The position numbers and the translations under genes are program-made. From Dehalococcoidia bacterium (lineage in GTDB: Bacteria; Chloroflexota; Dehalococcoidia; SM23-28-2; RBG-16-64-32), in the NCBI GenBank assembly GCA_030649945.1, contig JAUSFE010000050.1, positions 1,859-65,858 of the forward strand: a DNA stretch of 64,000 nucleotides, in the 5' to 3' direction. The notes under the pieces are model-generated. The model had not been told where the DNA came from. It saw nothing but the letters and a program-made list of their open reading frames with translations, and did not search any database. Each line of letters opens with the position of its first letter. Position 1 is the first letter of the stretch. This document shows, piece after piece, positions 389 to 46,124 of this stretch.

Positions 389-738
389 CAGTCTGTCTCC
401 CTCCCTTTTACCGCCGGCAGCACGCGGTCGCGGTACGCCTGTAGCTCCGCGCGCAGGTGCGCCATCTCGCGCTCCATCTGGCGCAGGCGCTCGTTCATGC
501 GCATCACGACCTCGGCGCCGGCCAGGTTCAGGCCCAAGTCCTGCATCAGGCGCTGGATGTAGCGCAGACGGTCGACATCGGACTGCGAGTAGAGGCGGAC
601 GCGCCCGCGGGAGCGGCTGGGGCTGATGAGGCCCTGGCGCTCGTAATTGCGCAGGCTCTGGGCGTGCATGCCGACCATGCGGGCGGCCACGCTGATGACG
701 TAGCAGGGCTCGTGGTCCGGGTTGCGTTCGTCTACCAT
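388..738 (-). CDS. hspR: MerR-family heat-shock transcriptional repressor HspR
   Basis: 116 aa. N-terminal MerR HTH (YVISVAARMVGMHAQSLRNYERQGLISPSRSRGRVRLYSQSDVDRLRYIQRL). Lies immediately downstream of dnaJ on the same strand, the classic dnaJ-hspR arrangement. Confidence 0.85.
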   Translation of the reverse strand: MVDERNPDHEPCYVISVAARMVGMHAQSLRNYERQGLISPSRSRGRVRLYSQSDVDRLRYIQRLMQDLGLNLAGAEVVMRMNERLRQMEREMAHLRAELQAYRDRVLPAVKGRETD

Positions 739-1378
739 GTCACGTTACCGCCGGTGTTCCTGTTTGGCGCGCCGTCGTTCCGGGCCGAGGCGCCGTAGGG
801 GGCGCAGCACTCGGGTAACGTGGTCGCGCCGGGGGATGGCCGGCTCCCGATTGCTGAGGCGGCTGCAACCGTTGGGCTGGCGTGCTGCGCCCCTACGCCC
901 CGCCCTGCCCTGACGCCGCGCCATACACGCATCGCGGTTACGCCGGCTCGTTCGTTCATCATGTCACATTACCGCCGGTGTTCCTGTTTGGCGTGGCGTC
1001 GTTCCGGGGCGGGTCACCGTAGGGCGCAGCACGAGGGCCGCGACGGTCGCGCCGGCGGGCGGCTGGCTTCCGGTTGCTGAGGCGGCTGCAACCGTTAGGC
1101 TCGCGTGCTGCGCCCCTACGCCCCGCCCTGCCCTCACGCCGTGCCATACACGCATCGCGGTCATGCCGGCTCGTTCGTTCATCATGTCACATTACCGCCG
1201 GTGTTCCTGTTTGGCGTGGCGTCGTTCCGCGGCGGGTCACCGTAGGGCGCAGCACGAGGGCCGCGCCGGGGGGGCTGGCTTCCGGTTGCTGAGGCGGCTG
1301 CAACCGTTAGGCTCGCGTGCTGCGCCCCTACGCCCCGCCCTGCCCTCACGCCGTGCCATACACGCATCGCGGTCATGC
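736..1378. repeat. tandem triplication (about 222 bp unit x3) between hspR and dnaJ. Each unit carries the hspR RBS/start region and a long REP-like inverted repeat (GTAGGGCGCAGCACG...CGTGCTGCGCCCCTAC)
   Basis: Units start near 736, 958 and 1181 with CATGTCAC(A/G)TTACCGCCGGTGTTCCTGTTTGGCG. Copies are more than 90% identical. The ORF-track hits 732..962, 964..1185 and 1182..1376 (MMNERAG...) are repeat-borne pseudo-starts. Confidence 0.85.
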
Positions 1379-2449
1379 CTTCGCTCCTGCGGGGGCCTTG
1401 CGGCGCTCCTCGCGTAGCTGCTCGAAGAGCGCGCGCTCGCGGTCCGACAGCTTTTCCGGGAGGACGACGCGGATGCGGGCGTAGAGGTCGCCGGACGGAC
1501 GGCCGCCCGCCGCGCGCGTCTGGGGCTGGGCGTGGCCCCTGGGCTTGCCGTCCAGGCGGGGCATGCCGAGGCCGGCCAGGCGGATGCTGCGGCCGTTCTG
1601 GGTGAGGGGCGGGATGGTGACGGCGATGCGCTTGCCGGCCAGCGTCTCGATGTGCACCTCGCCGCCGAGGACGGCGTCCTCCAGCGGCACCGGCACGTCT
1701 GTGTAGAGGTCGTCGCCCCTGCGCTCGAAGCGCGGGTGCGGGCGCACGCGCACGACGACGTAGAGGTCGCCGCGGGGGCCGGCCCTTCCAGGAGAAGGAC
1801 TGCCCTCGCCGGCCAGGCGCACGCGGGTGCCGTCACGGGCGCCGCGGGGGATGTTTACCTCCAGACGGCGGGGGCGCAGGACGGCGCCCTGTCCCTGGCA
1901 GACGTGGCAGACGGCGCCGGCCACCTGGCCGCTGCCGCCGCAAGTTGGGCACGGCTCCTCGCCCTGGAGCTCCAGGGCGCGGGCGGCGCCGTGGTGGGCC
2001 TCCTCGAGGGTGATCTCGGCGGCATACTCCACGTTCTGGCCGCGCAGGGGCCCGCGGCGGCCGACGGACGGGCGGCCGCCGCTCCCGGCGAAGACGTTGC
2101 CGAAGATGCTCTCGAAGCCACCGGCGCCGGCGCGGCCGACGAGGTCGCCGAGGTCGTTCAGGTTGAACTGGAAGGTCTGCCCTCCGCCTGAGGCGGACTG
2201 GGCGCGCGCCTTCTCGAAGGCCTCAGCCTGCTCCCAGCGCTCGCCGTAGCGGTCGTACTTGGCGCGCTTCTGGGCGTCGGAGAGCACCTCGTAGGCGCGG
2301 GTGATGGCCTTGAAGCGGGCTTCCGCGCCCTTGTCGCCCGGGTTGACGTCCGGGTGATGCTTGCGGGCGAGCTTGCGGTACGCCTGCTTGACCTCCTTGT
2401 CGGAGGCGCTGCGCTTGAGGCCGAGAATCTCGTAGTAGTCTTTCGCCAT
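1373..2449 (-). CDS. dnaJ: molecular chaperone DnaJ
   Basis: 358 aa. J-domain with HPD motif ([37 protein letters not shown]), G/F-rich linker, and CxxCxGxG zinc-finger repeats ([16 protein letters not shown]). Confidence 0.9.
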
Positions 2450-2580
2450 CAGACGTTTTCCGCGAGGCCTGGCGGTGGGCCCGCGCCGGCAGCCGGCGCA
2501 CGGGCGCCGCTGCGCCTGGATACAATTCTAGAGGGAAATGGGAGAGAAGTCAAAGGGGCCGGTGAATAAACATGATACGC

Positions 2581-2605
2581 GTGCTGTCAAGAGACTTGAC
2601 AGCAC
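2581..2605. promoter_or_regulatory. perfect 11-3-11 palindrome GTGCTGTCAAG-AGA-CTTGACAGCAC in the divergent dnaJ / DUF1326 promoter region; candidate operator (HspR/HAIR-like or other)
   Basis: Seen directly in the sequence. Each arm contains a TTGACA hexamer. Located 130 bp upstream of the dnaJ start. Confidence 0.35.
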
Positions 2606-2702
2606 GCCGGTTGGCCGGGGTGCCGTATTGACATCGTCCCCGCCCGCCAGCATCATGGGTGCGTCGTCTCGGATTCAAGCAGCGGTAGACAAGGAGGAAG
2701 GG

Positions 2703-3305
2703 ATGCCCTGGAACATTAGCGGCCAGTACATGGAGACTTGCAACTGCGACTACCTTTGCCCGTGCCCCCTTACCGGCATGGCGGAGACCACGCACGGCTA
2801 CTGCATCTTTGCGATGGCGTTCCGCACTGATAAGGGGGAGTACAACGGCATCCCGCTGGACGGCGTCAAGTTCGTCATCATCGGGCGCACGCCGGAGGCC
2901 ATGGGCGCCGGCAACTGGCAGGTGGGGTTGCTTGTGGACGCGGGCGCGAACCAGGCCCAGCAGGATTCGCTGGCGCAGATCGTGGGCGGGCAGGCCGGCG
3001 GCCCGATGGCGAACATCGCGCCGCTGATCGGCCAGTTCATGGGCGTCGAGGCGCGGCCGATCGAGTTCGAAGGCAGCGGCAGCAAGTGGCAGGTCAAGGT
3101 CGCCGGCAGGCTGGACCAGGCGCTGGAGGGCGCTACGGGGCTTGGCGGCGAGAACCTCTACCTGGACAACATGGGCCACCCGGTGGCGAACCGCCTGGCG
3201 CTGGCACGCGCGCAGCACAGCCGCCTGCACGCCTTCGGCATCGACTGGGAGGACGACAGCGGCCGTAACAACGGCCACTTCGCACCGTTCGACTGGCGCG
3301 GCTAG
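2703..3305 (+). CDS. DUF1326 family protein
   Basis: Internal ATG with a strong RBS (AAGGAGGAAGGG) at 2703. N-terminus MPWNISGQYMETCNCDYLCPCP matches the DUF1326 signature (NCxCxxxCPC). The ORF-track start at 2538 is an upstream extension through the promoter region. Confidence 0.75.
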   Translation: MPWNISGQYMETCNCDYLCPCPLTGMAETTHGYCIFAMAFRTDKGEYNGIPLDGVKFVIIGRTPEAMGAGNWQVGLLVDAGANQAQQDSLAQIVGGQAGGPMANIAPLIGQFMGVEARPIEFEGSGSKWQVKVAGRLDQALEGATGLGGENLYLDNMGHPVANRLALARAQHSRLHAFGIDWEDDSGRNNGHFAPFDWRG

Positions 3306-3420
3306 GGCCACGTTAGCGGGGCGGACACACGGATCCGCCCCTACGACCGGGCGGGCGCGGGCGGACACACGGGTCCGCCCCTACGACGGGCGGGCGCGGG
3401 CGGACACGCGGGTCCGCCCC
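3306..3420. terminator. three tandem copies of an about 39-bp GC-rich hairpin unit (GGGCGGACACACGGATCCGCCCCTACGAC) between convergent genes; likely bidirectional terminator array
   Basis: Direct tandem repeats seen in the sequence. Each unit forms the stem GGGCGGA...TCCGCCC. Lies between the DUF1326 stop (3305) and the GH15 stop (3420). Confidence 0.5.
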
Positions 3421-5237
3421 TACGCCGTGATGACCTTGCCCAGCTCGACGCTCTTGAGGGCGCGGTCAAGGTTCCTCGCGGTGTGGATGAGCGCTATGTG
3501 GGTGAACGCCTGCGGGTAGTTCCCCAGGTAATCGCCGGTCTCCGGGTCCAGCATCTCGGAGTAGAGGCCCACGTGGTTGCCCAGGCTGAGGACGCGCTCG
3601 AAGAGGTCGCGCGCCTCCTGCAGGCGTCCGGCGGCCACCAGGCTCCCGGCCAGCCAGAGGCTGCACATGGTGAAGGTGCCCTCGCGGCCCGGCAGCCCAT
3701 CGTCGGCGAGCTCGGGGAGGTAGCGATAGACGAGGCCGTCCACGCCAAGCTCCTTCCACACGGCGTCTATCGTCGCGTTCATGCGCGGGTCGTCAGCAGC
3801 CAGGAAGCCGACCATGGGGATGAAGAGCAGGCTGGCGTCCAGGCCGACGCCGCCGTAGTGCTGAATGAAGGAGCCGCGCTTGGCGTTCCAGCCGTGGGTC
3901 AGAATGTCCTGGCGGATCTCCTCGCGGGCCTTGCGCCAGCCGTCGAAGTCCACCGGCCGGCGCAGCGCTCGGGCCAGCCGCAGGCCGCGGTCCACTGCCA
4001 CCCAGGCCATGAGCTTGGAGTAGGTGAAGTGGCGGGGCCCCGTGCGGAACTCCCAGATGCCCAGGTCCGGTTCCCGCCAGCGGCGGACGGCGGCCTCCAC
4101 CAGGCAGCGCGCCACGTTCCACAGCCTCTCGTCGATGGCGCCGCCGACCCGCTGGTAGGAGTCCAGCGCCAGCATGATCTCGCCGAAGACGTCCAGCTGG
4201 AACTGATGGAAGGCGGCGTTGCCCACGCGTACCGGCCGCGAGGCGCGGTACCCCTCCAGGTGGTCAAGGGTATACTCCTCCAGCTCGTGGCCGTTCCGCC
4301 CCTCGATGCTGTACAGCGAGTGCAGGTCGCCGTTGCTCTCGCAGATCGCCAGGTTGGCGAGCCAGTCAACGAAGGGCTTGGTGTAGGTGGTGTGGCCCAG
4401 GCGGTGGAAGACGTCCATGGTGAAGGCGGCGTCGCGCAGCCAGGAGAAGCGGTAGTCCCAGTTGCGCACGCCGCCGATGCGCTCCGGCAGCGACGTGGTG
4501 ACGGCGGCGCAGACGGTGCCCGAGGGGACGTACAGGAGCAGGTGCAGCGCCAGCATGGAGCGCTTCACCACCTGCTCCCAGCGTCCGGTATAACGCCAGT
4601 CCTGCGAGACGAAGCGCCAGAACGCCTCCGTCTGGCCCAGGCGGCCGTGGACGTCGTAGCCGTCAACCGGCGGCGGCGAGTCCTGCCCCCACGCGACCAC
4701 GAACGCGGCCGATTCGCCCTGCCGTACCGTGAACCGCGCGCGGGCGGCGCCTTCCGCGGCCTCCAGATCGACCGCGGACGACAGCGAAAGGCAGCTGCGG
4801 CCGTGACGGGCCACGGCCACGCGGCTTTGAACGGAGACCTCCGTGCGGCCGCGGGCGTAGTCCAGGCGCGGCTGGAAGTGCAGGTCCATCTCCACGGCGC
4901 CCCGCTCGCAGCGCAGGAGGCGGATGAGGCTGCTTTCGCGCTGAGTGATCTGCTCGCCGACGGGCATGAAGTCGGTAAGCGTGGCGCCGCCGGAGGGGGT
5001 CTCGAACTCCGTGACCAGGACGTTGCTGTCAGGCAGGTAGCGCTGGCGGGACGTGAAGTCTCCGGGCGGGCTGACCTGGAAACGCCCGCCGGCGCCGTCG
5101 TCCAGAATGGCGGCGAAGACGCTGGGAGAATCGAAGCGCGGGAAGCACAGCCAGTCGATGGAGGCGTCAGAGCCGACGAGCGCGGCGGAATGCATATCGC
5201 CGATCACGCCGTAATCGTTAATACGCTTATACGCCAT
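3420..5237 (-). CDS. glycoside hydrolase family 15 protein (glucoamylase / trehalase-like)
   Basis: Typical GH15 N-terminus from the internal Met (MAYKRINDYGVIGDMHSAALVGSDASIDWLCFPRFDSPSVFAA). (alpha/alpha)6-barrel region motifs (WEFRTGPRHFTYSKLMAWVA). The ORF-track start at 5333 is probably a 5' extension. Confidence 0.85.
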   Translation of the reverse strand: MAYKRINDYGVIGDMHSAALVGSDASIDWLCFPRFDSPSVFAAILDDGAGGRFQVSPPGDFTSRQRYLPDSNVLVTEFETPSGGATLTDFMPVGEQITQRESSLIRLLRCERGAVEMDLHFQPRLDYARGRTEVSVQSRVAVARHGRSCLSLSSAVDLEAAEGAARARFTVRQGESAAFVVAWGQDSPPPVDGYDVHGRLGQTEAFWRFVSQDWRYTGRWEQVVKRSMLALHLLLYVPSGTVCAAVTTSLPERIGGVRNWDYRFSWLRDAAFTMDVFHRLGHTTYTKPFVDWLANLAICESNGDLHSLYSIEGRNGHELEEYTLDHLEGYRASRPVRVGNAAFHQFQLDVFGEIMLALDSYQRVGGAIDERLWNVARCLVEAAVRRWREPDLGIWEFRTGPRHFTYSKLMAWVAVDRGLRLARALRRPVDFDGWRKAREEIRQDILTHGWNAKRGSFIQHYGGVGLDASLLFIPMVGFLAADDPRMNATIDAVWKELGVDGLVYRYLPELADDGLPGREGTFTMCSLWLAGSLVAAGRLQEARDLFERVLSLGNHVGLYSEMLDPETGDYLGNYPQAFTHIALIHTARNLDRALKSVELGKVITA

Positions 5238-5365
5238 TGGCACCCCTGGGCTGGGAGAAGCCCGCCTCATCTCCACTATAGCGAACGCCGCCGCCGTCTG
5301 GGAAGTTAAGGGGTGGTGAACGTTGGGTGTCATCGCGGCCGGCTCCGCCGAAGGCGGACGGTGCT

Positions 5366-16555: not shown

Positions 16556-19792
<3,237 letters not shown>

Positions 19793-19995
19793 CCCCCGGG
19801 CCCCGGGCCAACATCCTCATCCGGGTTGTACGGCGGCCGAACGTAGGGCGCAGCATGCTGCGCCCTACGGCGCACGGCGTTCCGCTCGCCGGGGCGGTGT
19901 GGCGCGGTGCGACAGGGTGGCGCCGGGCACAAGGGGTTGACGGCCCGAGGCCGGTCTCTCGTATACTCTGGCTGATGCAGACACAGGAGGTTAAC

Positions 19996-22353: not shown

Positions 22354-22584
22354 GGTGAGGCGATTATACAAGCGAGAGCGGGGCGCAGGCGACAACATTC
22401 GGGGTGTCTTCCTCCGCTCGCCCTACGAGTGCCTCAGGGCGAGCGGGACGGGGCTCAGTGCGAGGCCAGAACGGGTGTGCCTCGCCCCCCCCGCACCTAC
22501 GCCACCGCAGGGGGCTCCTTCCCGCTCATGGTGAGGCGCTCACACCATGAGCGGAGGTGGCCCAGAGCGCAGCATGCTGCGCCC

Positions 22585-23490
22585 CTACGACGGCACCCAT
22601 TCATCGCCGGTGCGGGCGATGCGGCCCTCCGTCTCCAGCTTCGCGAGGTGGGCTTCGATCTGGCGCCGGGCCATGGGGAGGATGCGCCTGTCCAGCTCCG
22701 GGTAGATGGCGGAAAGCAGCGCCTGCGGGGTGCGCTTGCCGTCCGCGAGCAGGTGCAGTATCTGAGCCTCGCGCTCGTGCCGGTGGTCGATCAACTCCTG
22801 CAGCTTGGCCGGGACGTCATGCACCGCCTGACCATGGCCGGGGAGCATGAGTGCGCAGTCGTAGGACTTCAGCCGTTCGAGCGACTGCAGGTAGAGCGCC
22901 ATGTCGCCGTGGGGCGGGGGGGAGATGGCGACGGTGCCCAGGCCCAGGGCGGTATCGCCGGTGAAGAGGGCGCGCTCCTGCGGGATGTAGATGCAGACGG
23001 AGCCCAGGGTGTGGCCGGGCGTGTGCACCACCTCCAGGGTCAGCGCGCCCACCTGAAAGGTGTCGCCGTCGTTGACCAGGACCTCTGGCGCCGCCTCCGC
23101 GGCCTGCTGACGGAAGCGCTGGATCTGCTCGGCGATCGCCTTCTGATCGCCCGGCACCTCGATGTCCTGGGGAATATCGCTCTGCCAGTCGCGCAGGAAC
23201 TTCTCCTCCGCCGGGTGCAGGGTCACCTGCGCGCCGGTGGCCTCGCGGATCTGCTTGGCCCCGCTGGCGTGGTCGAAGTGGTGGTGCGTGAGGATGATGT
23301 AGCGGACACGAACGTCCGGATGCCCCTTCAGGAAGTCGAGCCGCTCGCGGACGGACTTCTCGTCGCCGAAGCCGCTGTCGATGAGCGCGCCCTCGCCGCC
23401 GTCGCGCACCAGGAAGACGTTGGGGGACTGCGGGCCGGTGTAGAAGGCCGGCTGCGCGGGGAGGGAGTGGATGCGGGGCGTTATCTCCAT
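22585..23490 (-). CDS. MBL-fold metallo-hydrolase with C-terminal winged-helix-like extension
   Basis: THHHFDH motif (ILTHHHFDHASG), HTPGHT; 301 aa. Confidence 0.8.
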   Translation of the reverse strand: MEITPRIHSLPAQPAFYTGPQSPNVFLVRDGGEGALIDSGFGDEKSVRERLDFLKGHPDVRVRYIILTHHHFDHASGAKQIREATGAQVTLHPAEEKFLRDWQSDIPQDIEVPGDQKAIAEQIQRFRQQAAEAAPEVLVNDGDTFQVGALTLEVVHTPGHTLGSVCIYIPQERALFTGDTALGLGTVAISPPPHGDMALYLQSLERLKSYDCALMLPGHGQAVHDVPAKLQELIDHRHEREAQILHLLADGKRTPQALLSAIYPELDRRILPMARRQIEAHLAKLETEGRIARTGDEWVPS

Positions 23491-23543
23491 TGGATCCTCA
23501 CATCGTTACGGGTGTGGCCCGTAGGGGCGAACGCCGTTCGCCC

Positions 23544-24095
23544 CTACGGGCACGCGTCCTCCGCCAGCGCGCCCATTATCACCATGTTCAGGGGCTTGCC
23601 GTGGCGCAGGCGGTGGCCGCGCAGCAGCCCCTCGCGCACGAAGCCGCACTTCTCGTAGCAGCGGATGGCGCGCGCGTTGTCCTCGTCCGCGATCAGATGC
23701 ACGCGGCGCAGCCCCAGCTCGCCGAAGGCGTGGCGCAGGAGCGCGCGGATGGCGTCGGCGCCGTAGCCGCGGCTCCAGCAGTCTTTCTCGCCGATGCTGA
23801 TGCCGAGTTCCGCGCGGCCGTGCGGGTGGATGTTCAGCAGCCCAATCTCTCCGATGGGCGTCCCGCCTTTCGTCTCGATGACCCAGGAGACGTGGCCCGG
23901 GTCGTCGCGGATGCGCTCCCAGCGCTCGCGGTGCGCCCGCAGGGAGCGCATGACCTGCGGCGGGTCCTCCGAGAGGTGGTGCCACTGGAGCACCTCGGGG
24001 TCGTTGAACCACTTGTGGAGGAGCGGCACGTCGTCGTCGCTGAACGGCCGCAGCCGCACCTTCTCGCCGGCGAGGGTCGCGGTGGGGATGGCCAT
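23544..24095 (-). CDS. GNAT family N-acetyltransferase (RimJ/RimL-like)
   Basis: 183 aa; acetyl-CoA-binding motif region RGYGADAIRALLRHAFGELGLRRVHL...NARAIRCYEKCGFVREG. Confidence 0.8.
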   Translation of the reverse strand: MAIPTATLAGEKVRLRPFSDDDVPLLHKWFNDPEVLQWHHLSEDPPQVMRSLRAHRERWERIRDDPGHVSWVIETKGGTPIGEIGLLNIHPHGRAELGISIGEKDCWSRGYGADAIRALLRHAFGELGLRRVHLIADEDNARAIRCYEKCGFVREGLLRGHRLRHGKPLNMVIMGALAEDACP

Positions 24096-24098
24096 GCG

Positions 24099-36662: not shown

Positions 36663-36875
36663 CGGCGCGCGGCAGGGAACTGGGAGTCAGGAGCTGGGAA
36701 CTAGGAGCCGCCCCGCCCGCGCACGCCGTCACGCGCAGAACGCCGTAGGGGCGCACGGCGTTCGCCCCTACGTTTGCGTTGGGCCGTCGCCTGCCGCGTA
36801 AGGCCGGGCGGTTGACAGCGAGTGGGCCGGCGGTATGCTTGTAACGCGTCCCGCTTCGGCGCATGGAGGGCCACC

Positions 36876-38243
36876 GTGGAACAACAGATCCGCTTCTGCA
36901 CAACAACTGACGGCGTGCGCATCGCCTACGGCACCGTGGGCCAGGGGCCGCCGCTGATCCGCGTGCTGGGCTGGTTCACTCACCTGGAGTTCGAGTGGGA
37001 GAACCCCCGCTGGCGCCGTCTTTACGAAGGCATGGCGGACCGCTTCACCTACATCCGCTACGACGGAAGGGGGATGGGTCTTTCCGACAGGGACGTGACC
37101 GACTTCTCGTCGGATGCCTTCGTGCATGATCTGGAAGCGGTAGTCGATGCCACGGGTTTTGAGAGGGTCGCGCTCTACGGCATCTCTCAGGGAGGTCCTA
37201 CGGCCATCCTCTACGCTCTGCGCCACCCGGAGCGCGTCAGCCACCTCATAATCTACGGCTCCGCCGTTCGGTCTACCTGGCCTGAAGAGCAACAGGAGAT
37301 GATGCTGTCCCTAATCCGCCAAGGCTGGGGCAGCGACGTCCCTGCTCACCGTCAGTTCTTCACTGGCCTGTTCATGCCTGACGGTGATATGGAGGCGATT
37401 CAGGCGTTCAACGAGATGCAGCGGGTGTCGGCCTCGGCCGAGAACGTTGCGGCGATGCTCACGCCGCCGCCGGAACTCCCTCCATTCGATCTTAGAGAAT
37501 TGCTGCCTCAAGTCGCTGTGCCAACCCTCGTGATCCACCGGCGCGGCGACGCCATCGTCCCCTTCGAGGCAGGACGCGAGATCGCCGCCGGCATTCCCGG
37601 CGCCCGTTTCCTCCCTCTGGAGGGTAGGAACCACGCCGCCCTTGCCGACGCGGATCAGCCGGTCATGGAGATTATGGCCAAGGCCATCGCCGACTTCGTG
37701 GGCGAAGGCCAGCAGGCCGTCACCGCGGACACGCCCTCCGGGATGGTCACCATCCTCTTCACGGACATGGAGGGCTCTACCACCCTCACTCAGCGGCTGG
37801 GGGACGCCAGGGCGCAGGAGGTGCTGCGCGCCCACAACACCATCGTCCGCGAGGCGCTGAAGGCGCACGGGGGCAGCGAAATCAAGCACACCGGCGACGG
37901 CGTCATGGCCTCGTTCCCAACGGCCTCCGGCGCGCTGGAGTGCGCCATCGCCGTGCAGCTGGCCTTCGCCGCGCACAACGAGTCGGCCGAGACGCCCGTC
38001 CGCGTGCGCATCGGCCTGAACGCGGGCGAGCCGGTGGCGGAGGAAGAGGACCTGTTCGGCACGGCCGTGCAGCTAGCCGCCCGTGTATGCGCCCAGGCTG
38101 AGCCGGGCCGGATCCTGGTGCCGGACGGCGTGCGTCACCTGGTGGCCGGCAAGGGGTTCCTGTTCTCGGACCAGGGCGACGTCGTCCTGCGGGGCTTCGA
38201 GGACCCCGTGCGGCTCTACGAGGTGCGCTGGGAGGAGGCCTAG
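36876..38243 (+). CDS. alpha/beta-hydrolase domain fused to class III adenylyl/guanylyl cyclase catalytic domain (LipJ/Rv1900c-like), copy A
   Basis: GTG start with RBS GGAGGG. Hydrolase nucleophile elbow GISQGG. CHD motifs FTDMEGST (metal Asp), EIKHTGDG (Lys + Asp), GLNAGEP (Asn), and R in GRILV. Confidence 0.8.
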   Translation: MEQQIRFCTTTDGVRIAYGTVGQGPPLIRVLGWFTHLEFEWENPRWRRLYEGMADRFTYIRYDGRGMGLSDRDVTDFSSDAFVHDLEAVVDATGFERVALYGISQGGPTAILYALRHPERVSHLIIYGSAVRSTWPEEQQEMMLSLIRQGWGSDVPAHRQFFTGLFMPDGDMEAIQAFNEMQRVSASAENVAAMLTPPPELPPFDLRELLPQVAVPTLVIHRRGDAIVPFEAGREIAAGIPGARFLPLEGRNHAALADADQPVMEIMAKAIADFVGEGQQAVTADTPSGMVTILFTDMEGSTTLTQRLGDARAQEVLRAHNTIVREALKAHGGSEIKHTGDGVMASFPTASGALECAIAVQLAFAAHNESAETPVRVRIGLNAGEPVAEEEDLFGTAVQLAARVCAQAEPGRILVPDGVRHLVAGKGFLFSDQGDVVLRGFEDPVRLYEVRWEEA

Positions 38244-38245
38244 CC

Positions 38246-39592
38246 ATGGAACAACAGATCCGCTTCTGCACAACCTCCGACGGGGTGCGCATCGCCTACG
38301 CCACTGCAGGCCAGGGCCCGCCGCTGGTGCTGATCACCGCTTGGGTGGGTCACCTTCAGTTCGAATGGAGCCACGCCGAGACCAAGGCGTTCTACGAAGG
38401 CTTGGCGAACGGGCGGCTACTCGTTCGCTTTGACAAGCGTGGCACCGGCCTAAGCGACAGGCAGGCAGAAGACTTCTCCGTAGAGGCGCGCCTGCGCGAT
38501 CTGGAGGCGGTGGTCGATGCCCTGCGCCTGAAACGCTTTGCCCTCATGGGCTTTTCCGAGAGCGGGCCCACGGCCATAATCTACGCAGCCCGCCATCCTG
38601 AGCGGGTGACGAACCTCGTCATCTATGGCTCCTACCACCGCTGGCCGTACCCTGCAGGGGCCGCCAATCCCGTCATGGCCCTGATCCGCTCGCAGTGGGG
38701 CATGGGATCAGCGGCGCTCTCTGCCATCTTCGTTCCCTCCGGCGATCCCGCCCAGGTAGCGTGGTGGACGGAGTTGCAGCGGGTCTCGGCCTCGCCAGAG
38801 AGTGCTGCCTCTATCTTCGAAGTGAACACCGGGCTTGATGTGACCTCCGTTCTCAGTGACATCCGGGCCCCGGCCCTCGTCATTCACCGGAACAACGATA
38901 CTGTCTGCCCCTTCGATGTCGCTCGCGAGATGGCTGCCCTCATCCCGGCTGCCCGTTTCGAGCCCCTGGAAGGCGATATCCATCCCCCCATGTTCGGCGA
39001 CACTGCCGCCGTCCTCAACGCCGTAGATTCCCTGCTGCCCAGCGGCGCGCGCCGCAGGCAGGCCGTCACCGCGGGCACGCCCTCCGGCCTCGTCACCATT
39101 CTCTACACCGACATGGAGGGCTCTACCCCCCTGACCCAGCGACTGGGCGACGCCAAAGCGCAGGAGGTGCTGCGCGCGCACAACACCATCGTCCGCGAGG
39201 CCCTCAAGGCGCACGGCGGGTCCGAGATCAAGCACACCGGCGACGGCGTCATGGCCTCCTTCCCAACGGCCTCCGGCGCGCTGGAGTGCGCCATCGCCGT
39301 GCAGCAGGGCTTCGCCGCGCACAACGAGTCGGCTGAGACGCCCGTCCGCGTGCGCATCGGCCTGAACGCGGGCGAGCCGGTGGCGGAGGAAGAGGACCTG
39401 TTCGGCACGGCCGTGCAGCTGGCGGCGCGCGTCTGCGCCAGGGCGGAGCCGGGGCAGGTCCTGGCCTCGAACGTGGTGCGTGAGCTGGCCGCCGGCAAGG
39501 GGTTCCTGTTCTCCGACCAGGGCGACGTGGTCCTGCGCGGCTTCGAGGATCCCGTGCGGCTGTACGAGGTGCGCTGGCAAGCGGCGGGCTGA
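38246..39592 (+). CDS. alpha/beta-hydrolase + class III cyclase fusion, copy B
   Basis: Starts 2 nt after the copy A stop. Hydrolase elbow GFSESG. The CHD region is about 95% identical to copy A (LYTDMEGSTPLTQRLGDAKAQEVLRAHNTIVREALKAHGGSEIKHTGDGVMASF...). Confidence 0.8.
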   Translation: MEQQIRFCTTSDGVRIAYATAGQGPPLVLITAWVGHLQFEWSHAETKAFYEGLANGRLLVRFDKRGTGLSDRQAEDFSVEARLRDLEAVVDALRLKRFALMGFSESGPTAIIYAARHPERVTNLVIYGSYHRWPYPAGAANPVMALIRSQWGMGSAALSAIFVPSGDPAQVAWWTELQRVSASPESAASIFEVNTGLDVTSVLSDIRAPALVIHRNNDTVCPFDVAREMAALIPAARFEPLEGDIHPPMFGDTAAVLNAVDSLLPSGARRRQAVTAGTPSGLVTILYTDMEGSTPLTQRLGDAKAQEVLRAHNTIVREALKAHGGSEIKHTGDGVMASFPTASGALECAIAVQQGFAAHNESAETPVRVRIGLNAGEPVAEEEDLFGTAVQLAARVCARAEPGQVLASNVVRELAAGKGFLFSDQGDVVLRGFEDPVRLYEVRWQAAG

Positions 39593-41028
39593 TGGACGCG
39601 CCGCCCATCCAGTACGCGAAGACCGCCGACGGCGTCAGCATCGCCTTCTGGACGCTCGGCGAAGGCCCCCCGCTCGTGATCCTGCCCAACCTGACCGCCA
39701 GTCACGTGCAGGTGGAGTGGGAGTGGGACGTCCGCCGGATCGCCTACCAGCGGCTGGCGCAGCACGCCACGGTCATCCGCTACGATTGTCGCGGCCTGGG
39801 GCTGTCTCAGCGCGATTGCCCCGACTTCTCCGCCGAGGCAGGGGGCCTCGACCTGGAGGCCGTCGTTGACCGCCTCGGCCTGGAGCGCTTCGCCATCTAC
39901 GGCTCCGACTCCACGGGCGACGTAACTTTCGCCTTCCCCGCCGGCCATCCGGAGCGGGTGAGTCACTTGATCATCGGCGTGCCGCATATCCAGCGCGGCT
40001 TCCGCCGCCGCCTGGCCGCCGTTCAGCCGCTCATTGATCAGGACTGGGAGCTGTTCATCGAAATCTTTCCGCGGCTCGCGGGGGGTTGGGACAGCCCCCA
40101 GGCGGCCCAGGTGCCGGCTGTGATGATGGGTACGCACACGCCCTCTAGCTTCCGCTCGGCTCTCGACGCGATGGCCGCCTTCTCGCCGGAGCCCTACCTG
40201 GCGGCTATTCAGGCGCCGTCGTTGATCATGCACCCGCTGCAGAGCGGCCGGGACAACCGGACAGCGCGAGTGCTGGCGGGCGCTATCGCCGGCGCTCACA
40301 TGGTAGGAATCCCGGGCTGGCCGCTCGCCTCAACACTCAACGAGACGGCCGTTGCGGCCATCCTGGACTTCATCAATACCGCGCCGGCCGCGCCGGGCCA
40401 CGCGATCCCCGCGCCGCAGATAGACATCAGCGCCGTCCGCACCATCGTCTTCACCGATGTCGAAGGCTCCACGGCGCTCAATGAGCGGCTCGGCGACGAG
40501 GGCGCCCGGGAGGTCCTGCGCGAGCACGAGCGACTGACGCGCGAGGCGCTCGCGTCGCACGGCGGCTCCGAGGTGAAGGCGATGGGCGACGGCTTCATGG
40601 CCTGGTTCCCATCGGCGACGCGCGCTGTGGAGTGCGCCATCGCCTTACAGCAAGCGTTTGACGAACGTAATCGGAAGGTAGGGGCGCAGCAACATGAGCC
40701 AAGTAGGAAGGATATCGAATCGTCTTCCGATGTTGCTGCGCCCCTACGCACCGCCTCCCGGCCACGCCTCGACACGCCCGAACCGATCCGCGTCCGTATC
40801 GGCATCAACGCCGGGGAGCCAATTGCCGAAGGAGACGACCTCTTCGGCGCATCGGTGATCACGAGCGCCCGCATCACCGCGCAGGCGAAGGGCGGCCAGA
40901 TCCTGGCTTCGGACGTGGTGCGCCAGCTCCTCGCCGGCAAGGGGTTCCTCTTCTCCGACCAGGGCGACGTCGTCCTGCGCGGCTTCGAGGACCCCGTGCG
41001 CCTGTACGAGGTGCGCTGGCGCCAGTAG
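39592..41028 (+). CDS. alpha/beta-hydrolase + class III cyclase fusion, copy C (carries an in-frame REP-element insertion in the CHD)
   Basis: ATG overlaps the copy B stop (TGATG). CHD motifs FTDVEGST, EVKAMGDGFMAWF, GINAGEP. The hydrolase GxSxG motif is degenerate (YGSDSTG). Extra 30 aa (KVGAQQHEPSRKDIESSSDVAAPLRTASRPRLDTPEP) relative to A/B/D. Confidence 0.8.
   Translation: MDAPPIQYAKTADGVSIAFWTLGEGPPLVILPNLTASHVQVEWEWDVRRIAYQRLAQHATVIRYDCRGLGLSQRDCPDFSAEAGGLDLEAVVDRLGLERFAIYGSDSTGDVTFAFPAGHPERVSHLIIGVPHIQRGFRRRLAAVQPLIDQDWELFIEIFPRLAGGWDSPQAAQVPAVMMGTHTPSSFRSALDAMAAFSPEPYLAAIQAPSLIMHPLQSGRDNRTARVLAGAIAGAHMVGIPGWPLASTLNETAVAAILDFINTAPAAPGHAIPAPQIDISAVRTIVFTDVEGSTALNERLGDEGAREVLREHERLTREALASHGGSEVKAMGDGFMAWFPSATRAVECAIALQQAFDERNRKVGAQQHEPSRKDIESSSDVAAPLRTASRPRLDTPEPIRVRIGINAGEPIAEGDDLFGASVITSARITAQAKGGQILASDVVRQLLAGKGFLFSDQGDVVLRGFEDPVRLYEVRWRQ
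40683..40752. mobile_element. REP-like palindromic element (GTAGGGGCGCAGCA...TGCTGCGCCCCTAC, long loop) inserted in-frame inside cyclase copy C
   Basis: Same palindrome arms as the intergenic REP copies at 19843, 22568, 43255 etc. Replaces the short ESAETP linker present in copies A and B. Confidence 0.7.
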
Positions 41029-41131
41029 GGGCGAACCGCCGTTCGCCCCTACGTTTGCCTTGCGTCTTCGCCTGCCTCCACCGCACCCGGCCGGTAGCCG
41101 CGCGGCATTTGACACGGTTGCGACCAGGAGT

Positions 41132-42535
41132 ATGATTCACGGTGCGGAGTGGCGTGAAAACGAAGTGAACCCATCGATCCAGTACGTGCACACGGCTGAT
41201 GGGGTCGCCATCGCCTACTGGGCCCTGAACGAGGGGCTGCCGCTGGTCTATGCGCCCATTATCCCCTTCAGCCACATTCAGCTGGAGTGGCAGATCCCGC
41301 AGTGCCGCCGCTGGTACGAGCAGCTGGCCGGCCACCGGCAGTTGATCCGCTATGACGCACGCGGCTGCGGCCTCTCGGAGCGCGACGTCTCGGACTTCTC
41401 GCTGGACGGGCTCGTCCTGGACCTGGAAGCGGTGGCAGACGGCTTGCACCTGGACAACTTCGCGCTGTTCGCCTCGTCTGACGCCTCGATGATGGCGATC
41501 GCTTACGCGGCGCGGCACCCGGATCGCGTGTCGCACCTGATCCTCTGGAGCGCGTGGGCGCGGCGAGAGGACGTCTCGCGGTCCGCGCAGGCGCGCTCGC
41601 TGCGCGCCGTCCTGGAGCAGGACTGGACCATCTACACGGAGACCGTGGCGCGCGTGCTGATGGGCTGGGCTGCGGAAGGGCCGGCGCGCGAGTTCGCGGC
41701 CTTTTACCGGGCGTGCACCAGCGCGGACGCCGTTCGCGCGCTGGCGGCGTCCGCCTACGAGACCGACGTGTCGGCTCTACTCCCCCAGATCAGGTGCCCG
41801 ACCCTGGTGGTGCACCGCAGCCACATCCCCGGCGTGGGCCTGCCCGTTGTGCGCGACCTGGCGGCCCGCATCCCCAACGCCCGCCTGGCGCTCCTGGAGG
41901 GGTTGTCTCCGCTGCCCTTCTTGGAAGACACGCAAGCGGTTGTACGGGCCATTCAGGTGTTCTTGGGGGAAGAGCCGGAAGACGATGCGGCCGCGCCGGA
42001 TGTCGCGGGCCGGGCGATCGCCAGCGCACCCGTCACGATCCTCTTCACGGACATGCAGAGCTCCACCGCCATGACGCAGCGCCTGGGGGACGCGCGGGCC
42101 CAGGACGTGCTGCACGTGCACAACAGCATCGTGCGGGCCGCGCTGAAGCGGCTGGACGGGTCGGAGGTCAAGCACACGGGGGACGGCATCATGGCCTCGT
42201 TCGCTTCGGCGACGAGAGGGCTGGAGTGCGCCGTCGCCATCCAGCGGGCGCTGGCCACCCACAACGCCTCTGCGCCGGACGGCGCGATCCACGTGCGTAT
42301 CGGCCTGAACGCCGGCGAGCCCGTGGCGGAGGAGTCGGACCTCTTCGGAACGGCAGTCCAGATCGCCGCGCGCGTCTGCGAGCATGCGGAGCCGGACCAG
42401 ATCCTGGTGTCGAACGTCGTGCGCGAGCTGGCGTCCGGGAAGGGGTTCCTGTTCTCGGACCGCGGCGACAGTGTGTTGCGCGGCTTCGAGGACCCGGTGC
42501 GGCTGTTCGAGGTGAGGTGGTCGCCCGGCGACTAA
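41132..42535 (+). CDS. alpha/beta-hydrolase + class III cyclase fusion, copy D (most divergent)
   Basis: Start approximate (internal ATG giving MIHGAEWRENEV...; the ORF-track TTG at 41060 lies within a REP hairpin). CHD motifs FTDMQSST, EVKHTGDGIMASF, GLNAGEP. Hydrolase nucleophile motif lost (FASSDAS). Confidence 0.75.
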   Translation: MIHGAEWRENEVNPSIQYVHTADGVAIAYWALNEGLPLVYAPIIPFSHIQLEWQIPQCRRWYEQLAGHRQLIRYDARGCGLSERDVSDFSLDGLVLDLEAVADGLHLDNFALFASSDASMMAIAYAARHPDRVSHLILWSAWARREDVSRSAQARSLRAVLEQDWTIYTETVARVLMGWAAEGPAREFAAFYRACTSADAVRALAASAYETDVSALLPQIRCPTLVVHRSHIPGVGLPVVRDLAARIPNARLALLEGLSPLPFLEDTQAVVRAIQVFLGEEPEDDAAAPDVAGRAIASAPVTILFTDMQSSTAMTQRLGDARAQDVLHVHNSIVRAALKRLDGSEVKHTGDGIMASFASATRGLECAVAIQRALATHNASAPDGAIHVRIGLNAGEPVAEESDLFGTAVQIAARVCEHAEPDQILVSNVVRELASGKGFLFSDRGDSVLRGFEDPVRLFEVRWSPGD

Positions 42536-43067: not shown

Positions 43068-43301
43068 GCGCAGCTCCGGCGTCGCCCCCCACCTCCGCCC
43101 CGCTGGAAGCCTGAAGGCATCCGCTACGTTCGCCGGCGGCAACGCGACCGCCCCGCCGGCGCGCGGCCGTCACGCCCGGAAACGCCGTAGGGGCGAACGG
43201 CGTTCGCCCAGAAACGCCGGACGGCCAAACGCGGTTCGCCCACACAAACGCCGTAGGGGCGCAGCATGCTGCGCCCCTACGTTCGTGTCGCGAGTCTCGC
43301 G

Positions 43302-45852: not shown

Positions 45853-46124
45853 GCGCAAGAGACAGGGTCATGGGGGCGGGAGGCAGGCCTGCCTGGCCGG
45901 CAGGCAGGCGCTAACCGGTGGCGAGCAGGACTATCGCCGCCCGCGCGTTGCCCGGGACCGCCCCACGCCACCCCGTAGGGAGGCACCCTTCGGCAGGCTC
46001 AGGGCAGGCTCTGAAGGTACCTCCCTACGGGAATCTGGCGGACTCAGCTCGCGCTGCGCGTTCCGCTTCCTCACCCCGGCGCGGCGCCGCCAGCGGGGGG
46101 CCGGCTGCCGCCTGCCAGCCCCCG

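What the first reader, a model, noticed from the sequence alone, without database searches (positions are those of the whole stretch)
40683..40752. REP-type palindromic element inserted in-frame inside a cyclase catalytic domain
Copy C of the cyclase array carries about 90 extra nucleotides relative to A/B/D. These comprise the palindrome GTAGGGGCGCAGCA...TGCTGCGCCCCTAC that occurs intergenically throughout the window.

The reading frame is maintained. The insertion lies in a linker between conserved CHD segments (after FDERNR, before IRVRIGINAGEP), adding about 30 residues.

This is the same phenomenon described for Rickettsia palindromic elements, but in a high-GC genome.
Basis: seen in the sequence. 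Interest (0 to 1): 0.7.

Follow-up and report, generated by a model that had tools for sequence, protein, structure and literature searches.

The report
REP hairpin translated inside cyclase gene
A 70-base GC-rich palindromic repeat of the "GTAG-REP" kind, common between genes in this Dehalococcoidia genome, sits in-frame in a surface loop of an adenylate-cyclase gene and is read as a floppy 32-residue loop. Repeats of this kind inside genes are already known in other bacteria, but here the hairpin is unusually well kept across distant relatives.

Summary
Cyclase copy C (39592-41028) carries 96 extra in-frame nucleotides compared with copies A and B. These are a perfect 18-bp-armed, 70-nt hairpin (40678-40747, 5 nt upstream of the stated coordinates) plus a 26-nt GC-rich tail.

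The arms match a repeat family whose head GTAGGGGCG occurs 23 times in the window against about 1 expected. Most copies lie at gene 3' ends. The insert falls between helix alpha3 and strand beta4 of the class III cyclase fold and is predicted to be disordered.

It is not private to this genome. Many C-type orthologues at 65-78% identity carry a hairpin at the same codon, with compensatory arm changes, sense-strand G·U pairs and diverged interiors. Sister sequences have an empty 13-residue loop. Other paralogues carry different hairpin types at the same site.

IleRS in this window (17222-17249) and a DNA polymerase III delta' gene in a relative carry in-frame copies too.

Intragenic GTAG-type REPs, including some in Chloroflexi genomes and in tRNA synthetases, were described in 2013 (PMC3733652). 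I therefore file this as a new member of a known kind. One open point remains: the elements evolve out of step with their host genes.

The parts
39592..41028 (+). Cyclase paralogue C (478 aa): N-terminal alpha/beta-hydrolase domain plus C-terminal class III cyclase domain. This is the host gene of the insert.
   Evidence: ORF list. Homologues carry Pfam PF00561 and PF00211. The fold matches Ma1120 and Rv1900c cyclase domains. dN/dS is 0.24 against the 94%-identical relative L002.
40678..40747 (+). 70-nt palindromic element: arms 40678-40695 and 40730-40747, 34-nt interior 40696-40729 containing a small inner stem GGAAG/CTTCC. It is translated as VGAQQHEPSRKDIESSSDVAAPL(R).
40748..40773 (+). 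26-nt GC-rich tail (GCACCGCCTCCCGGCCACGCCTCGACACG region, translated (R)TASRPRLDT). It completes the 96-nt in-frame insertion. It is homologous to the tail ~GCCCCGCCnCCGAACCACGCCCCGACACG found in orthologues and to intergenic sequence next to REP arms.
   Evidence: An 18-nt stretch of it is missing in L002.
36822..38243 (+). Cyclase paralogue A, with an empty site (13-residue linker LAFAAHNESAETP).
38246..39592 (+). Cyclase paralogue B, with an empty site.
41060..42535 (+). Cyclase paralogue D, with an empty site (14-residue linker).
41025..41052 (.). Family member GTAGGGGCGAACcgccGTTCGCCCCTAC. Its GTAG head supplies the TAG stop codon of copy C.
43253..43280 (.). Loop-less 28-bp perfect palindrome with the same arms (GTAGGGGCGCAGCA|TGCTGCGCCCCTAC). 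It is intergenic, downstream of groEL.
795..1331 (.). Three ~90-102-nt hairpins with the same arms (795-896, 1019-1119, 1242-1331), carried by a 223-nt tandem repeat.
19843..19868 (.). Near-identical 26-bp palindrome GTAGGGCGCAGCATGCTGCGCCCTAC, just downstream of IleRS.
17222..17249 (+). Second intragenic, in-frame family member: GTAGGGGCGCTTCGCGAAGCGCCCCTAC, translated VGALREAPL, inside isoleucyl-tRNA synthetase (16556-19792).
18785..18808 (+). Third intragenic REP-like hairpin, with a decayed 3' head: GTAGGGGCCGTTCGCGAACGGCCC, translated VGAVRERP, in IleRS.
23521..23547 (.). Family member GTAGGGGCGAACGcCGTTCGCCCCTAC, overlapping the stop codon of gene 23544-24098(-).
36745..36771 (.). Family member upstream of copy A. 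It is part of a ~65-nt repeat also found at 43147-43213.

Best explanation
The segment is a member of a genome-wide family of GTAG-headed, GC-rich palindromic repeats of REP type. The consensus is GTAGGGGCG, a variable palindromic core, then CGCCCCTAC. It lies inside the coding sequence of cyclase paralogue C.

Shown:
- A 70-nt hairpin plus a 26-nt linker-like tail (96 nt, 32 codons) occupies the loop between helix alpha3 and strand beta4 of the class III cyclase domain.
- The frame GTA-GGG-GCG (VGA...) avoids the TAG that the element contains in the neighbouring frame.
- The encoded peptide is predicted to be disordered.
- The host gene stays under purifying selection.

Inferred:
- The insert came from a composite intergenic REP/BIME-like unit (hairpin plus linker).
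- It landed in a structurally permissive, solvent-exposed loop and is simply read through by the ribosome as extra loop residues.
- It is old, or recurrent, in the C-type lineage of soil Dehalococcoidia.
- Its arms are kept complementary, and kept like the genomic family, by arm-to-arm correction and/or exchange with other family copies. Its interior drifts or is replaced.
- It has been lost cleanly, or erased by conversion from uninserted paralogues, several times.

The same process has decorated IleRS and, in a relative, DNA polymerase III delta'.
For: Family membership and excess over chance:
- The head 9-mer occurs 23 times against 0.97 expected.
- The 14-nt arm matches 14 times against 1.48 expected.
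- Most copies are intergenic or at gene 3' ends.

Insertion relative to paralogues and to a solved structure:
- C has 32 extra residues compared with A and B.
- Residues 86-119 of the C cyclase fragment have no counterpart in Ma1120.
- In the AlphaFold model, residues 366-400 are coil and pLDDT is below 50 at 368-393, between helix 342-365 and strand 401-407.
- The cyclase fold is confirmed at TM about 0.8 to 4WP3 and 1YBU.

The host gene is functional:
- dN/dS is 0.24 against L002.

An independent assembly carries the same element:
- L002 has it with 69 of 70 nt identical.

Orthologues:
- At least 13 distinct elements sit at the same codon, with lengths of 28, 67, 69, 70 or 100 nt, all but the 69-nt L076 copy equal to 1 mod 3.
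- Across 20 arm pairs, 92% of cells pair and 7 pairs changed on both sides. The covariation score is 0.342 against 0.131 in shuffles (0 of 500 reach it) and at most 0.07 in slid controls.
- At protein level the arms co-vary as VGAQ..AAPL, VGAR..ASPL, VGAE..AQPL and VGAS..DSPL.
- Filled and empty (13-residue) loops interleave on the tree of the C clade. Empty-site DNA is shown.

The tail also occurs intergenically next to REP arms:
- L031 7149-7171 and window 897-904.

Generality:
- IleRS carries VGALREAPL at 17222-17249. The identical 28-mer sits at the same site in an orthologue only 74.6% identical overall, and another orthologue has a different core there.
- The delta' gene in L084 carries an in-frame 64-nt member.

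Precedent:
- GTAG REPs, their complementary-change sub-families, G·T pairs and in-frame intragenic copies are described in PMC3733652.
Against: - No REP-associated tyrosine transposase was found. Ten window ORFs next to repeats scanned with Pfam gave none. The gene lists of two 21-kb relatives show none. A from-memory E. coli RayT probe gave only chance-level hits in 883 kb. The full genome was not available, so mobility is inferred and not shown.
- No target-site duplication or other insertion footprint is visible.
- The 42-nt interior of the window copy has no second copy in the sampled DNA, so no donor is known.
- Classical GTAG REPs are 20-40 nt with the tag at one end. This copy is 70 nt and the tag is paired on both ends.
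- Several relatives' loci (L029, L031, L032, L033; about 44 kb) contain the intragenic hairpin but no other GTAGG-type hairpin. This weakens the idea that a large resident family maintains it everywhere.
- Element and host-gene divergence are decoupled in both directions, which simple vertical descent of a neutral insert does not predict.
Confidence: 0.8

Rival explanations
1. The intragenic hairpin is not merely tolerated. It is a selected cis-acting nucleic-acid element embedded in the coding sequence. It might be an mRNA structure that sets transcript stability, processing or translation pausing, or a DNA or RNA site for the same factor that recognises the intergenic REPs. On this reading its sequence and pairing are kept by purifying selection.
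For: - Arms stay paired through changes on both sides.
- Single-sided changes inside the stems are mostly G·U on the sense strand (pairs 3, 4, 14, 17). Only one element, L084, has true mismatches.
- The head GTAGGGGC is invariant apart from G·U changes across all 13 elements, while interiors randomise.
- The window and L002 elements differ at 1 of 70 nt, although dS of the gene is 0.14-0.17. By my arithmetic about 10 changes would be expected at that rate.
- The L087 and L088 interiors are 87% identical, while flanking 4-fold sites are at 47% against 40% by chance.
- The IleRS 28-mer is identical (28 of 28) between genes that are 74.6% identical overall.
Against: - Sister lineages do without it, having clean 13-residue loops.
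- Decayed versions exist (P0010, P0018 and several IleRS orthologues).
- Different, unrelated hairpin types occupy the same codon in other paralogues. This looks like a permissive or targeted site, not one required structure.
- Some orthologue pairs have chance-level interiors.
- The high similarity in some pairs can equally come from exchange with other family copies or from re-insertion.
- No T-run follows the hairpin, so it is not a canonical intrinsic terminator.
Confidence: 0.25
2. [quoted passage not shown] The 13-18-nt arms would be terminal inverted repeats mobilised in trans by a DDE transposase, and the 28-bp palindromes would be internally deleted derivatives.
For: - Family members share the arms but have unrelated interiors of 0, about 40, about 70 and about 75 nt.
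- In-frame MITE insertions are documented in other bacteria (PMC10969869).
Against: - No target-site duplication flanks any copy examined.
- No IS element with matching ends occurs in the window.
- The GTAG head, the GC-rich perfect stem and the placement at gene 3' ends are the REP signature.
- Most family members are short loop-poor hairpins with different cores, not a single MITE consensus.
Confidence: 0.1
3. The extra segment is a native, lineage-specific linker, and its palindromic look is a by-product of GC-rich codon usage. Alternatively it is an assembly artefact or marks a pseudogene.
For: - The loop is variable in length across the family.
- The exact product of copy C is not on record in the gene-position index.
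- The L002 copy has a 1-nt deletion in a C-run.
Against: - An 18-bp perfect inverted repeat whose arms match six other sites exactly cannot be explained by codon bias.
- The same element is present in an independent MAG and in many metagenome contigs.
- The ORF is intact and dN/dS is 0.24.
- The arm covariation at protein level (Q with A, R with S, E with Q, S with D) makes sense only as nucleotide complementarity.
Confidence: 0.02

Closest known systems
GTAG-tagged REPs (repetitive extragenic palindromes), including their intragenic copies (Di Nocera, De Gregorio & Rocco 2013, BMC Genomics 14:522, PMC3733652)
   Same: - A GTAG head followed by a GC-rich stem-loop.
- Many copies, mostly downstream of ORFs.
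- Sub-families that differ by complementary stem changes.
- G·T pairs in the stems.
- Copies found in Chloroflexi (Thermomicrobium roseum GTAG-23).
- In-frame copies inside genes encoding 20-30 residues (up to 43-82), including tRNA synthetases and replication or repair genes.
   Different: - Here the GTAG is itself paired with a 3' CTAC, so the element is a symmetric palindrome tagged on both strands.
- The stems are 13-23 bp, against 6-13 bp.
- The cyclase copies are 67-100 nt with long interiors.
- The lineage (uncultured Dehalococcoidia) and this sequence family are not in that survey.
- Persistence at one orthologous codon across 65-78%-identical proteins, with compensatory arm changes, was not described there.
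Rickettsia palindromic elements (RPEs)
   Same: Palindromic repeats are inserted in-frame into unrelated genes and translated as extra peptide segments compatible with the protein fold. Insertions are shared by related species (PMC10969869). PMC3733652 equates RPE-4 and RPE-6 with CGTC-type REPs.
   Different: RPEs are ~100-150 bp, AT-rich, specific to Rickettsia and encode a conserved peptide. This family is GC-rich and GTAG-headed. Only its ends are conserved (VGA...PL) and the interior is not. There is no sequence relationship.
REP/RAYT and REPIN systems (REP-associated tyrosine transposases of the IS200/IS605 HUH class)
   Same: The GTAG-headed hairpins are the substrate type that RAYTs bind and cleave as single-stranded DNA (as summarised in PMC3733652). 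The absence of target-site duplications fits this chemistry.
   Different: No RAYT gene was found in the DNA available. REPINs are doublets of two self-folding REPs, whereas here each arm is not itself a hairpin.
BIMEs (bacterial interspersed mosaic elements)
   Same: These are composite units of REP hairpins plus conserved linker motifs. The cyclase insert is a hairpin plus a 26-nt tail. Relatives carry two different hairpin types in series in the same loop, and the tail recurs intergenically next to REP arms.
   Different: BIMEs are defined in enterobacteria, with specific L/S/r/l linkers and IHF or gyrase binding. None of that was tested here.

Membership tests
GTAG-tagged REP superfamily (PMC3733652) | Terminal GTAG (or a close variant) tetranucleotide at one end of the repeat | tested here: met
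   All family copies start with GTAG(G). Two orthologous copies have GTGG, a variant also listed in the paper.
GTAG-tagged REP superfamily (PMC3733652) | Short (20-40 bp) GC-rich palindrome forming a stem-loop | tested here: inconclusive
   This is met by the 26-28-nt members (17222, 19843, 23521, 41025, 43253). The cyclase copy is 70 nt with an 18-bp stem and a 34-nt interior, outside the usual size range.
GTAG-tagged REP superfamily (PMC3733652) | High copy number dispersed in the genome | tested here: inconclusive
   There are 23 heads in 64 kb against 0.97 expected, all within 1-43.3 kb. The whole genome was not available.
GTAG-tagged REP superfamily (PMC3733652) | Predominantly extragenic, close to the 3' ends of ORFs | tested here: met
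   Most copies are intergenic or overlap stop codons. Three of about 14 are intragenic.
REP/RAYT (REPtron) system | A RAYT (Y1 HUH transposase, Pfam Y1_Tnp) gene flanked by the same REPs | tested here: inconclusive
   None was found in 10 repeat-adjacent ORFs, in the gene lists of L084 and L085, or by a tblastn probe recalled from memory over 883 kb. Absence from a 64-kb window says little about the genome.
REP/RAYT (REPtron) system | Cleavage or mobilisation of the REP by the RAYT | not testable with these tools
   This needs biochemistry or comparison of isogenic strains.
Rickettsia palindromic elements (RPE) | Sequence membership in one of the RPE families, with a conserved encoded peptide | tested here: not met
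   The organism is a Dehalococcoidia MAG. The element is GC-rich and only its ends are conserved. No Rfam family matches anywhere in the window. The resemblance is functional only.
MITE | Terminal inverted repeats plus flanking target-site duplication, with a related autonomous IS | tested here: not met
   Inverted termini are present. No duplication is seen at any copy, and no IS with these ends occurs in the window.
Class III adenylyl/guanylyl cyclase domain (host gene) | Cyclase-homology fold with metal-binding Asp residues (FTD..., GDG...) | tested here: met
   Homologues carry PF00211. phmmer matches Ma1120 and Rv1900c and Foldseek gives TM about 0.8. The transition-state Asn is replaced in all four paralogues, which is unrelated to the insert.

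The most novel reading that the evidence does not exclude
The same codon of a protein loop is a long-lived, actively maintained 'docking site' for REP-type hairpins. Different hairpin types occupy it in three tandem paralogues, and IleRS shows the same pattern. The hairpin heads stay invariant and the arms complementary, while element age is decoupled from host-gene age. This could mean either site-specific re-insertion or cassette-like exchange at the two GTAG heads by a REP-processing enzyme, or direct selection on an RNA or DNA structure embedded in coding sequence. Either would make intragenic REPs functional or targeted elements and not passengers.
Probability: 0.25. Interest if true: 0.7.

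Novelty: new member of a known kind. Interest (0 to 1): 0.45.

Why it matters
It extends the known phenomenon of translated REP-type repeats to uncultured soil Dehalococcoidia and to a signalling enzyme. It also gives a well-replicated natural experiment. There are dozens of orthologues and paralogues with filled, empty, decayed or differently filled versions of one loop, plus an essential single-copy gene (IleRS) with the same behaviour.

That series can be used to ask three questions:
- How do such repeats enter genes?
- Why do they persist?
- Is the hairpin, as opposed to the peptide, what is being conserved?

In practical terms, the peptide signatures VGA...PL, ARPEALVGRAG and similar are annotation flags for repeat-derived segments in Chloroflexota proteins.

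Tried and rejected
- Rfam gathering-threshold scan and tRNA scan of the window: nothing found.
- DNA alignment of the four paralogues with MAFFT placed the gap wrongly because it is not codon-aware. The protein alignment was used instead.
- The source genome is not in genome contigs. The best hit is a 91-94% relative, L002.
- Exact-product look-ups of copy C and of IleRS P0121 returned 'not on record'. The contig accession could not be recovered.
- Two look-ups (P0051, P0077) returned gene lists but no DNA.
- A search for other copies of the element interiors in all fetched DNA found only the orthologous copies.
- RAYT search: a Pfam scan of 10 repeat-adjacent ORFs gave MerR, DnaJ, DUF1326, MBL, GNAT, PhoU, ABC and DUF2851. 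A tblastn probe recalled from memory gave only chance-level hits.
- A full-text literature search for the head 9-mer returned only unrelated primer sequences.
- Genome-specific homogenisation of arm type: rejected as a general rule, because one contig (L086) has three paralogues with three different elements. L084, however, looks like a partial conversion of the 5' arm to that genome's prevalent type.
- Interior sequences as unrelated 'cassettes': only partly supported. Gapped alignments show weak homology within the 67-70-nt group.
- A small palindrome (TCGGCCGA) at the empty site of A and B was considered as a target signal, but it is not consistent across empty sites.
Full report
**Observation**

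Copy C of a four-gene tandem array of alpha/beta-hydrolase-cyclase genes is the ORF 39592-41028. The other copies are A 36822-38243, B 38246-39592 and D 41060-42535. C contains a perfect inverted repeat with arms 40678-40695 (GTAGGGGCGCAGCAACAT) and 40730-40747, separated by 34 nt.

- The finding's coordinates are 5 nt too far downstream.
- In the protein alignment, C has 32 residues that A and B lack (31 compared with D). They lie between FDERNRK and PEPIRVRIGINAGEP, and the frame stays open.
- The palindrome supplies 70 of these 96 nt. The remaining 26 nt (40748-40773) are a GC-rich tail.
- The 14-nt arm is far commoner in the window than chance allows (14 matches against 1.48). So is the 9-nt head GTAGGGGCG (23 against 0.97).
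- The region folds better than all 200 shuffles (z = -3.2).

**What the repeat family looks like**

The window holds about 14 hairpins of the form GTAGGGGCG, a palindromic core, then CGCCCCTAC, with several different cores.

- The cores include CAGCA|TGCTG, AACGnCGTT and CTTCG|CGAAG.
- The arms of the cyclase copy recur exactly in a loop-less 28-bp palindrome (43253-43280), in a 26-bp variant (19843-19868), in a half-copy (22575-22588) and in three ~100-nt hairpins carried by a 223-nt tandem repeat (795-1331).
- Most copies lie at gene 3' ends. In four genes, including copy C itself, the TAG of the GTAG head is the stop codon.
- The 42-nt interior of the cyclase copy is unique in the window.

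**Where it sits in the protein**

- The nearest solved relatives are the Mycobacterium avium Ma1120 cyclase and the M. tuberculosis Rv1900c cyclase domain. The latter also belongs to a hydrolase-cyclase fusion.
- In the phmmer alignment the C fragment matches Ma1120 on both sides of a 34-residue stretch that has no counterpart.
- An AlphaFold model (mean pLDDT 82) puts residues 366-400 in coil, between helix 342-365 and strand 401-407, with pLDDT below 50 at 368-393.
- Foldseek confirms the cyclase fold.
- From established knowledge of class III cyclases, the alpha3-beta4 loop is peripheral. In mammalian enzymes it forms part of the Gs-alpha docking groove and is not part of the active site.
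- The gene is under purifying selection (dN/dS 0.24 against the closest relative).

**Relatives**

The source is an uncultured Dehalococcoidia MAG: its IleRS is 100% identical to an NCBI MAG protein. The nearest genome record, L002, is 91-94% identical.

- L002 carries the same 70-nt element with one synonymous difference and lacks 18 nt of the tail.
- Among the 28 closest homologues (60-78% identity), about half carry an insertion at the same codon. It begins VGAQ, VGAR or VGAE and ends AAPL, ASPL or AQPL. Nine have a clean 13-residue loop.
- DNA from genome and metagenome contigs shows the hairpin in each inserted copy, at 28, 67, 69, 70 (five copies) or 100 nt (six copies). All but the 69-nt L076 copy are 1 mod 3.
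- In C-type copies a conserved tail follows, ~GCCCCGCCnCCGAACCACGCCCCGACACG. The same tail occurs intergenically next to REP arms (L031 7149-7171, window 897-904). The donor was therefore probably a composite hairpin-plus-linker unit.
- On a rough neighbour-joining tree, filled and empty loops interleave within the C clade, and inserts also occur in three more distant clades.
- Other paralogues carry different hairpin types at the same codon. L002's upstream copy has a GCGCTTGGCGATGCGC-core hairpin plus an 'ARPEALVGRAG' hairpin. One contig, L086, has three tandem paralogues with three different elements.

**How the hairpin evolves**

- Over 13 distinct elements, 92% of cells in 20 arm pairs are paired and seven pairs have changed on both sides. 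The covariation score is 0.342, against 0.131 in shuffles (0 of 500 reach it) and at most 0.07 when partners are slid.
- Single-sided changes within the stems are mostly G·U on the sense strand.
- One element (L084) is a chimera. It has a GCGCAGC-type 5' arm and a GCCTCGC-type 3' arm. The rest of that contig carries GCGCAGC-type copies, which suggests conversion towards the resident type.
- Element and host-gene divergence are decoupled. Window and L002 differ at 1 of 70 nt, although dS is 0.14-0.17. The L087 and L088 interiors are 87% identical, while flanking 4-fold sites are at 47% against 40% by chance. Yet window/L032 and L087/L028 interiors are at chance level, while their 4-fold sites are 62-63% identical.
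- Gapped alignment still detects weak homology within the 67-70-nt group.

I cannot tell apart three explanations without whole genomes:
- selection on the nucleic-acid structure;
- exchange with other family copies;
- re-insertion at a preferred site.

**Generality**

- IleRS (16556-19792) contains an in-frame 28-bp member at 17222-17249 (VGALREAPL). It lies in a loop that is about 13 residues longer than in Thermus thermophilus IleRS.
- An orthologue only 74.6% identical overall carries the identical 28-mer at the same site. Another carries GTAGGGGCGCAAGGCCTTGCGCCCCTAC. Many others carry VGAxxxxPL or decayed versions.
- A second, decayed copy lies at 18785-18808.
- In relative L084 a 64-nt member is in-frame in the zinc-module loop of DNA polymerase III delta'.

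**Comparison with what is known**

- Di Nocera et al. 2013 (PMC3733652) defined GTAG-tagged REPs in Proteobacteria, Cyanobacteria, Chloroflexi and the PVC group.
- That paper described sub-families differing by complementary stem changes and G·T pairs. It also reported in-frame intragenic copies encoding 20-82 residues, many in replication or repair genes and some in tRNA synthetases.
- Rickettsia palindromic elements are the classic in-frame case.
- The present element therefore works like these and fits the GTAG-REP description in head, stem, copy excess and placement.
- It differs in being tagged and paired at both ends, in its long stems, and in the 67-100-nt forms.
- A RAYT was not found in the DNA available, so membership of a REP/RAYT system is untested.
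- It is not an RPE. It lacks the target-site duplications expected of a MITE.

**Verdict**

It is a new member of a known kind. The residual interest lies in three points: the repeated occupation of one codon in several paralogues, the maintenance of the hairpin across deep divergence, and the decoupling of element and host-gene divergence.

Noticed in passing
window 41025-41052, 22575-22588, 23521-23547, 3319-3424: Four genes end on the TAG inside the GTAG head of a REP hairpin: cyclase C, the MBL-fold gene 22585-23505(-), the GNAT gene 23544-24098(-) and gene 3420-5363(-). This suggests that insertions into 3' ends re-defined the stop codons.
   Followed up: partly
window 17222-17249 and 18785-18808: Isoleucyl-tRNA synthetase carries two in-frame REP-type hairpins (VGALREAPL and VGAVRERP). 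The first is identical in an orthologue only 74.6% identical overall. Other orthologues replace it with different cores or decayed versions.
   Followed up: yes
L084 2779-2842 (minus-strand gene 1865-3085): A 64-nt family member is in-frame (VGAQRAANAEQPSEPIDAAPL) in the zinc-module loop of DNA polymerase III delta' in a relative.
   Followed up: partly
window 725-1379: A 223-nt unit is repeated three times in tandem (90% matches) between a merR-like ORF and dnaJ. Each unit carries a ~100-nt hairpin with the same arms as the cyclase element.
   Followed up: no
window 36705-36771 and 43147-43213: A ~65-nt repeat ending in a GTAGGGGCG(A/C)ACGGCGTTCGCCC hairpin brackets the four-gene cyclase array. 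It may have helped the array expand. Relatives L084 and L002 have fewer copies between the same flanking genes (groEL side).
   Followed up: no
L002 54-182; L086 92-172 and 3003-3206; L031 8318-8410; L040 1916-2002; proteins P0091, P0199, P0200, P0225, P0232, P0140: Other hairpin-repeat types leave recognisable peptide signatures in the same cyclase and IleRS loops: ARPEALVGRAG, VGAGLKPAR, LLRQAQDEH, PSTGSGQA repeats and GLRPAPT. These loops are general sinks for repeat insertions in this lineage.
   Followed up: partly
window cyclase paralogues A-D (for example C residues ~419-428): All four paralogues lack the canonical transition-state Asn of class III cyclases. They read GTAVQLAAR or GASVITSAR where Ma1120 has GRNVAMAAR. 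Their catalytic status is uncertain, whatever the insert does.
   Followed up: no
L002 ~933 (equivalent to window 40095): The closest relative's copy C has a 1-nt deletion in a C5 run that breaks the frame. This is either a MAG consensus error or a pseudogene. The database protein P0024 accordingly starts downstream of it.
   Followed up: partly
window 40748-40785: The tail contains a direct repeat CCGAACC...CCGAACC with the native PEP codons. The 18-nt window/L002 indel lies between ACGC repeats. Both hint at slippage or duplication at the insertion junction.
   Followed up: no
window 45975-46028: A 54-nt hairpin GTAGGGAGG...CCTCCCTAC with an 'LRQAQG'-type interior lies in the predicted 5' end of the DUF2851 ORF, probably upstream of the true start.
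   Followed up: no
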